Positions 3,001 to 6,000 of a DNA stretch of 12,989 nucleotides are shown here, one piece after another (position 1 is the first letter of the stretch; each line of letters starts with the position of its first letter). The DNA lies in the IMG/VR virus record IMGVR_UViG_2671180609_000015. One strand, given 5' to 3'. Made by a program: the position numbers. The DNA is from a virus. Taxonomy: Duplodnaviria; Heunggongvirae; Uroviricota; Caudoviricetes.

Positions 3001-6000
3001 AGGGACAGGGGGTGGACCGCATCACAACTGAATGAAGTACAGATTGTGGTTGATGAGATCCGCGACACACTGGAAAAGGCAGTCATTGACTGTTGTGATG
3101 AGGCCGATATGTGAATCAGGTGAACGAGAGCCATAGCCGCGCATCCGATATCTGGCGCGAAGTGGCCTCGCTGTTTCGCCCACCCAGCCGGTTACCAGTA
3201 GCGGAAGCCATCAGGCGTTATATGCGGGTTCCACGGGGAGCCAATACTTCCGGTCCGTGGGAGTCATCGCTGACGCCCTATATGATTGACCCCATTAATA
3301 CATTATCAGCCCGTGAATATGACGCGGTGGTGTTTGTGGGACCTGCGCGAACCGGGAAAACCGAAGGGCTGATTGATGGCTGGATTGTGTACGGCATCAT
3401 CTGTGATCCGGCGGATATGCTGGTGGTGCAGATGACTGAGACGAAGGCGCGTGAGCATTCCAGAACGCGTCTTTCCAGGACGTTTCGCCACAGTCCGGAG
3501 GTCAGCAAGCGCCTCAGTCCTTCCCGTAATGACAACAACGTCCACGATAAAATGTTTCTTGACGGCTCCTTCCTGAAGATTGGCTGGCCGTCGATCACCG
3601 TCTTTTCCTCTTCGGATTACCGTCGTGTGGCGCTGACGGATTATGACCGTTTCCCTGAAAACGTGGACGGGGAAGGGGATGCCTTCACGCTGGCCTCAAA
3701 GCGTACCACCACCTTTATGTCCTCGGGGATGACCCTGGTCGAGAGTTCACCGGGGCGGGATATCACCGATACCAAATGGCGTTGTGGTGGCGCACATGAG
3801 GCACCGCCAACAACGGGGATCCTGTCACTGTATAACCGGGGAGACCGCCGCCGGTGGTACTGGCCGTGTCCGCACTGCGGGGAATATTTTCAGCCGGTGA
3901 TGGATAACATGACCGGATACCGGAATAACCCGGATTTTGTGGCTGCCGGTCAGGCTGCCCGTCTGATGTGTCCGCATTGTCGCGGGCTGATCGCCCCTGA
4001 GCAGAAACGCGAACTGAATAACCAGGGGATCTGGCTTCGTGAAGGTGAACGGGCGGCGGCGGACGGCAGTATCACCGGAACGCCACGAAACTCCCGGATT
4101 GCGTCATTTTGGATGTAGGGTACATTTCTTACCTGTTTGTATGTTCTGGTGTCGTTTCATAGTCTTTTCAATGAGTTGTGATTTTATGAGTTTCCTCTCT
4201 TTGCTTGATAATGAGTTAGTTTATCGCTTGTTATTGGCTTGAATGGACTACATGACGGACTAAAAAATGAGGGCGATAGATGTCGGTAAAGCCATTAACC
4301 GTGACTGAAGTTAAGGGGATGAAACCACGTGAAAAGGACTATGCCGTTTATGATGGGTTCGGTTTATTGCTGAATGTGAGTAAAGCCGGTGGGAAAGTGT
4401 GGCGTTTCCGTTATAGCCATCCGATAACGAAGAAACGGCAGACATACACGATAGGACGTTTTCCTGAATTCTCACTCGCGGAAGCACGGGAAGTACGTGA
4501 TGAACTTCGGCGAATGATTGCACGTGGAGTTGATCCAGTGACGGAGAAGAAAAATCGTAAAATTGAGATGTCACTAAAAAATCTACAGACATTTGAAGCT
4601 GTTGCTAATGCATGGTTCGCTTTTAAAAAGGGATCTGAATTGCGGAAACCTACGCTGTATAATATCGAATATGAAGTATACAAATATCTTGTTCCTTTCT
4701 TTGGTAAGTACAGTATAGAAAAAATTACAGCACCAGTAGCTATTAATGCTCTGGATGCCGTATCCGATAAGAATGCGTTGCAAAAAAAATTAATATCAAG
4801 ATTAAATGAAATTATGAATTATGCTGTAAATTGTGGAGCATTGAAAGCAAATCCATTACTTAAGATAAAGACTGCATTCACAGGAAAGAAAAATAAATCA
4901 TTAGCAGCACTACCTGTTGAAAGATTGCCTGAATTTCTGAGCTGGTGGGATAGTGTGCCTCATACCTATCAAATAGCTCATAATGCACTTTTATTCCAGA
5001 TATTGACAATGGTCAGGCCAGGTGAGGCGATTAAAGCAGAGTGGTCAGAGATTGATTTTGATTCTGGCTTGTGGATTATCCCCGCGCATAAAATGAAATG
5101 CCATCGTGAACATGTTGTTCCCTTGTCATCACAGGCTATTAGTATCCTCAGAACAATGCAGGAAATAAAAAGAGGGCGTTATGTGTTTTTTTCCTCCAGA
5201 ACAAAAGATGCGCCTATGGGGAGGAATACTATCAAGACCCCAATTGCTGCCAGTAAGTTCAAAGGGATTGTAACGTTACATGGTTTTCGTTCAATGTGGA
5301 GTACGCTTTTAAATGAGGAGGGATTTAACCCCGATGTAATCGAGGCTGCATTGGCGCATAAAAGTGGTGATAAAATAAGAGATATTTATAATAGAACTAT
5401 TTATCTAGAACAGCGTAAGATCATGATGCAATGGGTCGGTGATTTTTTTGATGATGCGAGAAAAGGGGTAATTAATAGATCCGGTGGTATGAAAGGTTTA
5501 AGAGTAGTAAATGGTTGAGGAGGTTCAGCAAATGAATACCAATGAAGATATTTTATTTACTAAAGACGTAATGAAAATCTTGCGATATGGAGCAATGAGT
5601 GCATTCATCAATTTCTGGAAAGATGAGAATAATGGTTTTCCTCAGCCGTTCAGAATTGGACGACGACATACCTGGCACCGTAGAGATGTAGAAGCATGGT
5701 TAGATAAACAACGAGAACAGGCCAATCCCCACTAATAATATCTTTCATACCCCGCGTGCAATGCGGGGTTTTTTGTATGTGAGGTAAAAAAGAAATGAAT
5801 AAAAATATTGCCGTGACGGGCAAGGGTGACGCACGTCATGTAAAAAAATTCTGTGATTTTCGTGATCTGGTCGTTCTGCGCTTTGATAGTGTGAACGTTC
5901 GCGTGGTGTATCTGAACGGCGATCCGTGGTTTGTTGCAAAGGATGTTTGTGTTGCTCTGGAAATAAGTAACTCACGCGATGCTCTAAAAGCACTAGATGC

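What the first reader, a model, noticed from the sequence alone, without database searches (positions are those of the whole stretch)
3111..4280. Large terminase gene stops mid-protein exactly where an AT-rich integrase module begins
Seen in sequence: the gpA-like ORF is collinear with lambda gpA through the Cys/His motif, then hits TAG at 4116-4118 with roughly 290 codons missing. The next 160 bp are AT-rich with no terminase-like frame, and a P4-family integrase starts at 4280. Inference: either an integrative element inserted into, or recombined at, the helper terminase gene (which would cripple the prophage's own packaging), or this is a deletion scar of a decaying prophage. Either way the resident phage could not package DNA from this terL copy.
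Basis: partly seen in the sequence, partly recalled or inferred. Interest (0 to 1): 0.6.

Follow-up and report, generated by a model that had tools for sequence, protein, structure and literature searches.

The report
Satellite island inserted in prophage terminase
A roughly 10-kb phage satellite has inserted by site-specific recombination into the large-terminase gene of a lambda-like E. coli prophage, switching the packaging gene off until it excises; this arrangement was described in 2023, but this integrase lineage and this target site were not.

Summary
The gpA-type terL ORF (3111-4118) ends at TAG 4116-4118. Homology to uninterrupted phage terL stops at base 4120. A 37%-GC spacer follows, then a P4-family integrase starts at 4280.

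It is not decay. In closely related complete E. coli genomes the missing terL 3' part (372 codons, the nuclease domain) lies 10.2-10.8 kb downstream. The two junctions share the core TGGATG(T/G)AGGG, and deleting the island in silico restores a 699-707-aa TerL.

The island has PICI organisation, all co-oriented with terL:
- integrase and an AlpA-like regulator;
- a Bro-N protein;
- Icd-like, DUF4222, primase and SSB genes;
- two cos-like copies matching the helper's cos;
- its own ClpP-protease/capsid fusion.

This is the "helper-embedded PICI" arrangement of Tommasini et al. 2023. However, the integrase is only 25% identical to theirs, their attP motif is absent, and a gpA-type terL site is not among their 14 sites.

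All nine integrase relatives examined at 44-76% identity also lie in or beside prophage late genes. This suggests a second integrase clade with that tropism.

The junction occurs in 77 of 5426 complete E. coli genomes. The right end lies outside the window, and excision was not tested.

The parts
2442..2604 (+). cos-like region of the host (helper) prophage, upstream of its small terminase gene
   Evidence: This stretch recurs twice inside the island. Alignment shows a conserved core GGGTCCTCC..GGTGGGG..CACGGGGCGG..GCGGCGCGGAAAAAGG. That it is cos is inferred from its position and from analogy with lambda and with the 11capE/50icd pair (PMC10111431).
2638..3114 (+). helper small terminase subunit (DUF1441 family)
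   Evidence: Pfam DUF1441 E=2e-49. PHROG 141 terminase small subunit E=6e-69.
3111..4118 (+). 5' fragment of helper terL (gpA type): complete ATPase domain, 335 codons, stop codon supplied by the island
   Evidence: Pfam GpA_ATPase 45-308, E=6e-82. 335/335 identical to CP-1639 TerL residues 1-335.
4110..4120 (+). attL core TGGATGTAGGG. The crossover is probably within TGGATG, and the T at 4116 creates the TAG stop
   Evidence: attB is TGGATGGAGGG in the uninterrupted CP-1639 terL. attR is TGGATGGA(G/A)GG in L001, L083, L084 and L089.
4121..4279 (+). island left arm (attP-derived), AT-rich, with repeated motifs ATGAGTT (4171, 4186, 4211), TTTATCGCTT (4220) and GGACTA (4245, 4257)
   Evidence: This arm is nearly identical in islands sitting in different terL alleles. 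No + strand terminator-like or promoter-like site lies between the terL fragment and int.
4280..5518 (+). P4-family tyrosine integrase of the island
   Evidence: Pfam Arm-DNA-bind_3, Phage_int_M and Phage_integrase. 33% identical to P4 Int and 25% to 11capE Int. Present in 90 of 5426 complete E. coli genomes.
5511..5735 (+). AlpA/Vis-like HTH regulator and putative excisionase
   Evidence: PHROG 66 'excisionase and transcriptional regulator' E=2e-7. Weak Pfam HTH_17 hit. RefSeq annotates the equivalent gene as AlpA family in some records.
5795..6376 (+). Bro-N domain protein (antirepressor-like): the 'Bro zone'
   Evidence: Pfam Bro-N E=1e-18. PHROG 2593 anti-repressor E=1e-85.
6826..10391 (+). 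replication zone: Icd-like region, small ORF 7093-7320, DUF4222 7326-7625, primase/helicase 7622-9370, ORF 9658-9972, SSB 9969-10391
   Evidence: Pfam DUF4222, D5_N/DUF5906/Pox_D5 and SSB. PHROG 864 DNA primase E=5e-168. Icd-like annotation comes from matching E. coli records.
10426..10589 (+). island cos-like copy 1, matching the helper's cos region
   Evidence: 89.6% identity over 164 bp to window 2442-2604. In the Qin-type composite L083 the island copy matches that helper's cos instead, 91% over 233 bp.
10825..11052 (+). small conserved ORF upstream of the capsid gene, function unknown
   Evidence: PHROG 4934 E=2e-51.
11049..12938 (+). island-encoded ClpP-like prohead protease/major capsid fusion: the captured 'late zone' gene
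   Evidence: Pfam CLP_protease and Phage_capsid_4. 52% identical to the helper prophage's own fusion protein in L001.
12963..12989 (+). start of island cos-like copy 2, cut by the end of the window
   Evidence: 27/27 match to helper cos in the window. The same copy is 92% identical over 90 bp in L001. In L083/L084 it is followed by an island DUF1441 terS copy.

Best explanation
The window holds the left junction (attL) and most of a roughly 10.4-kb phage-inducible chromosomal island (PICI-type satellite). The island is integrated by site-specific recombination inside the gpA-type large terminase gene of a lambdoid (Stx-phage-like) E. coli prophage, in the same orientation as the gene.

Shown:
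- The island's P4-family integrase sits next to a crossover core TGGATG, at terL codons W334-M335, the border between the ATPase and nuclease domains.
- The island arm supplies an immediate TAG, so only the ATPase domain can be made.
- In relatives, the nuclease half of terL resumes exactly at the other end of the island.

Inferred, from the anatomy and from the experimentally studied analogue 11capE:
- After prophage induction, helper late transcription reads through terS and the terL fragment into int and alpA.
- The island excises and terL is rebuilt exactly.
- The island replicates with its own primase and SSB.
- It is packaged through its helper-matched cos copies by the helper's terminase, possibly into capsids built with its own protease/capsid fusion protein.

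On this model, terminase production, and with it helper packaging, is gated by satellite excision.
For: - Junction comparison. attB is GCGTCATTTTGGATGGAGGGGCCAGC in the uninterrupted CP-1639 terL. attL is ...TTTTGGATGTAGGGTACATT in the window. attR is ...CTTCTTGGATGGAGGGGCCAGC in L001.
- The same codon and core are used in four diverged terL backgrounds, including Salmonella.
- At least 10 different terL flank alleles occur among 35 IMG/VR contigs carrying the junction.
- In-silico excision restores a 707-, 699- or 700-aa TerL in five loci; island size is 10.2-10.8 kb.
- The terL 3' fragment, portal gene and the helper's own capsid gene follow the island in L001, L083, L084, L087 and L088.
- PICI gene content, all on the + strand.
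- Helper-matched cos copies.
- The island capsid fusion is 52% identical to the helper's, and the island terS copy is 49-56% identical to helper terS genes.
- The junction is present in 77 complete E. coli genomes, and int in 90.
- There is a published experimental precedent for this configuration (PMC10111431).
Against: - The island's right end and the terL 3' part are outside the window. For this particular genome they are inferred from relatives; the best full-length match to the window's island is 89% coverage at 94.6% identity.
- No excision product was seen. The predicted attP junction was not found in IMG/VR or JGI metagenome contigs.
- Some copies carry a frameshifted small gene.
- Many STEC prophages are defective, so individual copies may be stranded.
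- Read-through transcription, excision timing, capsid size redirection and packaging are not shown for this element.
Confidence: 0.85

Rival explanations
1. The island was once a satellite but is now immobile, so terL is permanently inactivated and the host prophage is a packaging-defective remnant. Any packaging would depend on other lambdoid prophages in the same cell.
For: No attP junction was found in viral or metagenome contigs. Frameshifted small ORFs occur in several copies. The L001 host prophage has pseudogenes and an IS nearby. STEC genomes hold up to 4 places matching the terL-int junction query, so complementation in trans is plausible. Tommasini et al. note that many helpers look truncated.
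Against: int, alpA, primase, SSB and the capsid gene are intact ORFs in the window. The integrase cluster is highly conserved, with 657 member sequences at 90% identity or more. The same junction occurs in at least 10 terL alleles and in two genera, which requires recent repeated integration. The att cores are intact and excision would restore the reading frame.
Confidence: 0.1
2. A deletion or illegitimate-recombination scar of a decaying prophage: the terL 3' half was lost, and an unrelated integrase module happens to abut the break.
For: Within the window alone no terL 3' part is present, and the right boundary is not visible.
Against: In every complete relative examined, the terL 3' half is present at the other island end, with a matching core repeat and an exact reading-frame join. 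The break falls at the same codon in diverged alleles.
Confidence: 0.03
3. An assembly or sequencing artefact: a chimeric join, or a frameshift in a really full-length terL.
For: The window contains a 98-nt run of N (2108-2205), so the record is not flawless.
Against: The identical junction is found in 77 complete genomes from many laboratories and serotypes. No terL-like frame continues after base 4120.
Confidence: 0.01

Closest known systems
Helper-embedded PICIs (HE-PICIs), founder Eco567.11capE in E. coli NRG857c (Tommasini, Mageeney & Williams 2023, NAR Genom Bioinform, PMC10111431)
   Same: [quoted passage not shown] The target gene is disrupted with no replacement sequence. The zone order is the same: int and alpA, Bro, replication (Icd-like, DUF4222, primase, SSB), then late (captured capsid and terS homologues, plus a cos shared with the helper). 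The backbone genes are the same families as in 11capE.
   Different: The integrase is only 25% identical (86 bits) to 11capE Int, against their 400-bit inclusion cutoff. Their HE-PICI-specific doubled attP motif TGTATTGC is absent. The target, a gpA-type terL at the ATPase/nuclease border, is not among their 14 sites; their terL sites are in Terminase_1-family genes.
Gram-negative PICIs such as EcCICFT073 (Fillol-Salom et al. 2018, PMC6092414; 2019, PMC6739421)
   Same: int, alpA, a primase-type replication module, unidirectional transcription, a size of about 10-15 kb, cos packaging by lambdoid helpers, and sometimes capsid-related or terS-related genes.
   Different: Those islands sit at chromosomal attachment sites described as never used by prophages, and they interact with the helper only in trans. 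This one sits inside the helper itself. No relation to Rpp was tested.
Satellite phage P4
   Same: The integrase is of the P4 family (33% identity, Arm-DNA-bind_3 domain). The element also has a Vis/AlpA-like regulator, an Icd-like gene and a D5/primase-type replication protein.
   Different: P4 integrates at a tRNA-Leu gene (own knowledge, not tested here). P4 uses P2-type helpers and encodes Sid, Psu and Delta. None of these was found here, and the helper is lambdoid.
Capsid-forming PICIs (cfPICI, e.g. EcCIEDL933)
   Same: The satellite encodes its own major capsid protein and prohead protease.
   Different: cfPICIs also encode terL, a portal, head-tail connectors and HNH. This island has only the protease/capsid fusion, plus terS in some variants.
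Regulated gene integrity / active lysogeny (e.g. Listeria phi10403S in comK, SpyCIM1 in mutL; own knowledge, and cited generically in PMC10111431)
   Same: A mobile element interrupts a gene, and excision restores it, giving a reversible genetic switch.
   Different: Here the switched gene belongs to another mobile element, the helper phage, and the presumed beneficiary is the satellite.

Membership tests
Helper-embedded PICI (by configuration, Tommasini et al. 2023) | [quoted passage not shown] | tested here: met
   The terL ATPase fragment abuts attL and int in the window. Lysis genes and terS lie upstream. Uninterrupted alleles exist.
Helper-embedded PICI (by configuration, Tommasini et al. 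2023) | Key satellite genes co-oriented with the interrupted late gene | tested here: met
   int, alpA, Bro-N, primase, SSB and the capsid gene are all on the + strand, like terL.
Helper-embedded PICI (by configuration, Tommasini et al. 2023) | PICI zone order: integration, Bro, replication, late | tested here: met
   Pfam and PHROG scans, and annotation of relatives.
Helper-embedded PICI (by configuration, Tommasini et al. 2023) | attL and attR share an identity block, and the other half of the late gene lies at the far end | tested here: inconclusive
   Met in six related loci. The window ends at 12989, before the right end, so this is not seen for this genome.
Helper-embedded PICI (by configuration, Tommasini et al. 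2023) | Precise excision after helper induction, restoring the late gene | not testable with these tools
   Only simulated: the joined sequence gives a full-length TerL. The attP junction is absent from viral and metagenome contigs.
Published HE-PICI integrase clade (Tommasini et al. 2023) | Integrase closely related to 11capE Int (at least 400 bits in their search) | tested here: not met
   86 bits, 25% identity. The window's Int is closer to P4 Int, at 202 bits.
Published HE-PICI integrase clade (Tommasini et al. 2023) | Doubled TGTATTGC motif about 81 bp upstream and about 132 bp downstream of the attP centre | tested here: not met
   The motif is absent on both strands of attP reconstructed from three islands. 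Different repeats are present instead: TTTATCGCTT at -98 and +110, and ATGAGTT three times.
Published HE-PICI integrase clade (Tommasini et al. 2023) | Uses one of the 14 mapped late-gene sites | tested here: not met
   Their attL/attR files contain neither a GpA site nor the TTGGATG core. All their terminase sites are in Terminase_1 genes. Their spreadsheet was cut when stored, so absence there is not absolute.
Satellite P4 family | Sid/Psu/Delta capsid-size and transactivation genes, and a P2-type helper | tested here: not met
   No such families appear among the island ORFs scanned. The surrounding prophage is lambdoid.
Capsid-forming PICI | Own terL, portal, head-tail connectors and HNH in addition to the capsid gene | tested here: not met
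   Complete relatives of the island carry only the protease/capsid fusion, with or without DUF1441 terS and a 93-aa ORF.
gpA-type large terminase | GpA_ATPase plus GpA_nuclease domains in one polypeptide of about 640-710 aa | tested here: not met
   The window ORF has only GpA_ATPase. The intact allele has both domains, 45-308 and 330-648 of 707 aa.

The most novel reading that the evidence does not exclude
The integrase here belongs to a second lineage of satellite integrases that targets prophage late genes. This lineage is only about 25% identical to the published HE-PICI clade and is closer to P4 Int.

All nine clusters examined at 44-76% identity lie in or directly beside prophage packaging, head or tail genes:
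- gpA terL in E. coli and in Salmonella;
- a split S78-protease/capsid fusion;
- after a truncated Major_capside gene;
- after portal_3;
- between terS and terL;
- a gene after the tail-completion gene;
- the tail region downstream of the tape-measure gene.

A 41%-identical relative sits at tRNA-Pro. If this holds, helper embedding evolved at least twice, or it is driven by something shared by the PICI backbone rather than by integrase ancestry. It would also be more widespread than the published estimate. Because the target here is the terminase of Stx-phage-type prophages, such satellites could gate Stx phage packaging.
Probability: 0.6. Interest if true: 0.6.

Novelty: new variant of a known kind. 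Interest (0 to 1): 0.5.

Why it matters
The finding turns what looks like a broken terminase gene into a reversible switch held by a satellite: no terminase until the satellite leaves.

The 2023 paper that defined this configuration reported a single integrase clade and 14 target sites. The evidence here points to a second, distant integrase clade with several further late-gene targets. That bears on how often and how easily this nested parasitism evolves.

In practice:
- The target terL allele is the one carried by Stx1 and Stx2 converting phages and many STEC prophages. About 14% of the complete E. coli genomes that match the terL-int junction query carry the occupied junction (77 of 556). 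Occupancy may therefore influence phage and toxin-gene mobility.
- Automated annotation flags these prophages as defective, with a partial terminase, when they may not be.

Tried and rejected
- **Close integrase relatives in GTDB species representatives.** The best hit was 40% identical and from unrelated marine genera. The window's own contig could not be recovered, so attR was not seen for this genome.
- **Rfam scan of the window for P4-type C4/isrK immunity RNAs.** No match.
- **tRNA scan.** None, so this is not a tRNA-targeting event.
- **Predicted excised attP junction.** Not found in IMG/VR or in JGI metagenome contigs.
- **Published HE-PICI attP motif TGTATTGC.** Absent.
- **The att core and a GpA site name in the Tommasini supplements.** Absent.
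- **Literature searches for an earlier description in STEC papers.** These found only Sp7 of O157 Sakai, a P4-like/lambdoid chimera at another location. It was not followed up, because Sakai's Sp15 terL is uninterrupted.
- **Possible start for a separate nuclease-domain protein.** The in-frame ATG inside the core at attR could in principle serve this role, but no Shine-Dalgarno-like sequence precedes it.
- **Dominant-negative idea.** The ATPase-only TerL fragment might inhibit co-resident terminases. This is untested speculation.
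Full report
**1. What is in the window**

All long ORFs of interest are on the + strand.
- The left part is the late region of a lambdoid prophage. It holds a holin (154-444), a lysozyme (1042-1575) and an Rz-like gene (1874-2380), which is interrupted by a 98-nt run of N.
- It continues with a DUF1441-type small terminase (2638-3114) and a gpA-type large terminase ORF (3111-4118).
- From 4280 onwards the genes are those of a satellite: a P4-family integrase (4280-5518), an AlpA/Vis-like HTH protein (5511-5735) and a Bro-N protein (5795-6376).
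- Next come an Icd-like region, a DUF4222 protein (7326-7625), a D5/DUF5906 primase (7622-9370) and an SSB (9969-10391).
- The last gene is a ClpP-protease/major-capsid fusion (11049-12938).

**2.

- The terL ORF ends at TAG 4116-4118. Its 335 residues are identical to residues 1-335 of the uninterrupted 707-aa TerL of Stx1 phage CP-1639.
- They contain the complete GpA_ATPase domain. The intact protein continues with GpA_nuclease, residues 330-648.
- The break is therefore at the border between the two domains, and 372 codons are missing.
- Megablast against phage genomes shows that 13 uninterrupted terL genes match up to window base 4120 and no further.
- No frame of the window encodes the C-terminal half.
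- The 161-bp spacer is 36.6% GC, against 57.4% for terL.

**3. It is an insertion, with att sites**

In E. coli 2014C-4423 the 3-kb stretch across the junction is 100% identical to the window.
- There the terL fragment is followed by a 10.4-kb island, then a "terminase gpA endonuclease subunit, missing N-terminus", then the portal gene and the prophage's own ClpP/capsid fusion.
- The three sites read as follows:
  - attB (CP-1639): GCGTCATTT-TGGATGGAGGG-GCCAGC
  - attL (window 4110-4120): GCGTCATTT-TGGATGTAGGG-TACATT
  - attR (L001): CTTCTTCTT-TGGATGGAGGG-GCCAGC
- The single difference inside the block is T in attL and G in attR and attB. This places the exchange within TGGATG. It also means the island arm itself supplies the TAG.
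- The same arrangement occurs in a Qin-type prophage of two commensal E. coli strains whose terL is only about 85% identical, and in a Salmonella prophage.
- Among 35 IMG/VR contigs with the attL junction, at least ten different terL flank alleles occur, plus one flank that is not terL.
- Removing the island in silico restores a 707-, 699- or 700-aa ORF in all five E. coli loci tested.
- A deletion scar, a naturally short terminase, a frameshift and an assembly artefact are therefore excluded for the element as a type.
- For this particular genome the right end lies beyond the window. The window's island is a mosaic variant, and the best complete-genome match covers 89% at 94.6% identity.

**4. 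The island is a helper-dependent satellite matched to its host prophage**

- It has no lysis, tail, portal or terL genes. It has the Gram-negative PICI layout.
- The prophage's presumed cos region (2442-2604) recurs in the island at 10426-10589 (89.6% over 164 bp). It recurs again directly after the capsid gene, from 12963 to the window end.
- In the Qin-type composites, island copy 1 matches that helper's different cos region instead (91% over 233 bp). The island therefore tracks its own helper.
- Copy 2 is followed in those islands by a DUF1441 terS homologue, 49-56% identical to helper terS genes.
- The island's protease/capsid fusion is 52% identical to the helper's.

**5. Likely mechanism**

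Shown:
- site-specific insertion at a fixed codon;
- disruption of terL after the ATPase domain;
- co-orientation of island genes with terL;
- absence of a predicted + strand terminator or promoter between the terL fragment and int;
- helper-matched cos copies.

Inferred:
- While integrated, the prophage cannot make a functional terminase.
- After induction, late transcription runs into int and alpA, the island excises and terL is restored.
- The island then replicates and is packaged by the helper's terminase.
- Its own capsid and terS homologues bias assembly or packaging in its favour.

This inference rests on the published analogue 11capE. For that element, precise excision was measured about 2 h after mitomycin C, after excision and replication of the whole composite (PMC10111431).

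Not shown here: any excision product. The predicted attP junction is absent from viral and metagenome contigs.

**6. Comparison with what is known**

- The configuration is the "helper-embedded PICI" of Tommasini, Mageeney and Williams (2023). By configuration this element qualifies, and its backbone gene families are the same as those of 11capE.
- It is not a member of their integrase clade:
  - its integrase scores 25% identity and 86 bits against 11capE Int, with their inclusion cutoff at 400 bits;
  - it is closer to P4 Int, at 33% and 202 bits;
  - their HE-PICI-specific doubled TGTATTGC motif is absent, and other repeats occupy the arms;
  - a gpA-type terL site is not among their 14 sites, and their terL sites are in Terminase_1 genes.
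- It is neither P4-like (no Sid, Psu or Delta; lambdoid helper) nor a capsid-forming PICI (no terL, portal or connectors).

**7. Beyond the finding: a second late-gene-targeting integrase group**

Relatives of the integrase at 44-87% identity occur across Enterobacterales. Every cluster whose context I read lies in or directly beside prophage late genes:

| Cluster | Host | Identity | Context |
|---|---|---|---|
| P0004 | Salmonella | 76% | same terL site |
| P0009 | Salmonella | 63% | splits an S78-protease/major-head fusion (PHROG 617 positions 9-393 and 386-624 on either side) |
| P0013 | E. coli | 60% | lambda-like prophage, in a gene after the tail-completion gene; island carries cap_E, gpD and Nu1 copies |
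| P0044 | Raoultella | 52% | after a truncated Major_capside gene |
| P0043 | E. coli | 50% | between a protease-like gene and the cement/capsid genes; one chromosomal copy |
| P0035 | E. coli | 49% | between terS and terL; island carries PerC |
| P0060 | Pantoea | 45% | after portal_3 |
| P0057 | Providencia | 44% | tail region after the tape-measure and NlpC/P60 genes |

A 41%-identical relative sits at tRNA-Pro, the classical type of site. This is a sample and not a phylogeny, but it suggests a second clade with the same tropism.

**8. Frequency**

- The integrase gene is in 90 of 5426 complete E. coli genomes.
- The terL-int junction is in 77 of them. Serotypes include O157:H7, O121, O145:H28, O111, O45:H2, O103:H2 and commensals.
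- About 480 genomes carry this terL type uninterrupted.
- The uninterrupted site is present in Stx1 and Stx2a/2d converting phages.

**9. Verdict**

The thing is a known kind of arrangement with a new integrase lineage and a new target site. Interest is moderate.

Noticed in passing
window 2108-2205: A 98-nt run of N lies inside the Rz/spanin-like ORF 1874-2380. It is probably masking in the source record. It does not affect the finding.
   Followed up: no
window 10426-10589 and 12963-12989; L083 21285-21545 and 23815-24070: The island carries two cos-like copies flanking its capsid gene. Copy 1 follows whichever helper the island sits in (STEC-type or Qin-type), which suggests recombination with the helper. 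Copy 2 precedes an island terS copy in some variants. Why there are two copies is unexplained.
   Followed up: partly
window 11352-11365: The island's own ClpP/capsid gene contains ATGATGATGATACA. This is one mismatch from the sequence used as the integration core by the published C:CLP_protease:110 HE-PICI group, so this satellite might itself be a target for another embedded satellite.
   Followed up: no
window 4245-4262; L091, L094, L096 and L097 just upstream of int: A GGACTA(G/C)A motif, often doubled, lies 20-40 bp upstream of the integrase start in the four other members of this integrase group whose upstream sequence was read. It could be a regulatory or arm-type binding site.
   Followed up: partly
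window 5749-5769: A strong terminator-like hairpin (9 pairs, 6 of them G-C, followed by a T run) lies directly after the alpA-like gene on the + strand. It may separate the int-alpA unit from the rest of the island.
   Followed up: no
window 445-1005: A 186-aa ORF of unknown function lies between the holin and lysozyme genes of the host prophage. A hypothetical gene occupies the same position in L087.
   Followed up: no
L102 14695-14967 and L103 12155-12427: A related embedded island (integrase 49% identical, between terS and terL of a Stx-phage-like prophage) carries a PerC-family gene. [quoted passage not shown]
   Followed up: no
L096 10001-11230; one of 35 IMG/VR loci: Occasional copies of islands from this integrase group sit at non-phage sites: next to a LysR gene in L096, and at one non-terL flank among the viral contigs. 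These look like off-target integrations.
   Followed up: no
L088 4749-5512 (O157:H7 Z1835): The host prophage of the island in this O157:H7 strain has the Stx-phage layout: Q, then tRNA-Ile, Arg, Arg, then the DUF6645/nanS-p gene. No stx genes are annotated between the tRNAs and DUF6645.
   Followed up: no
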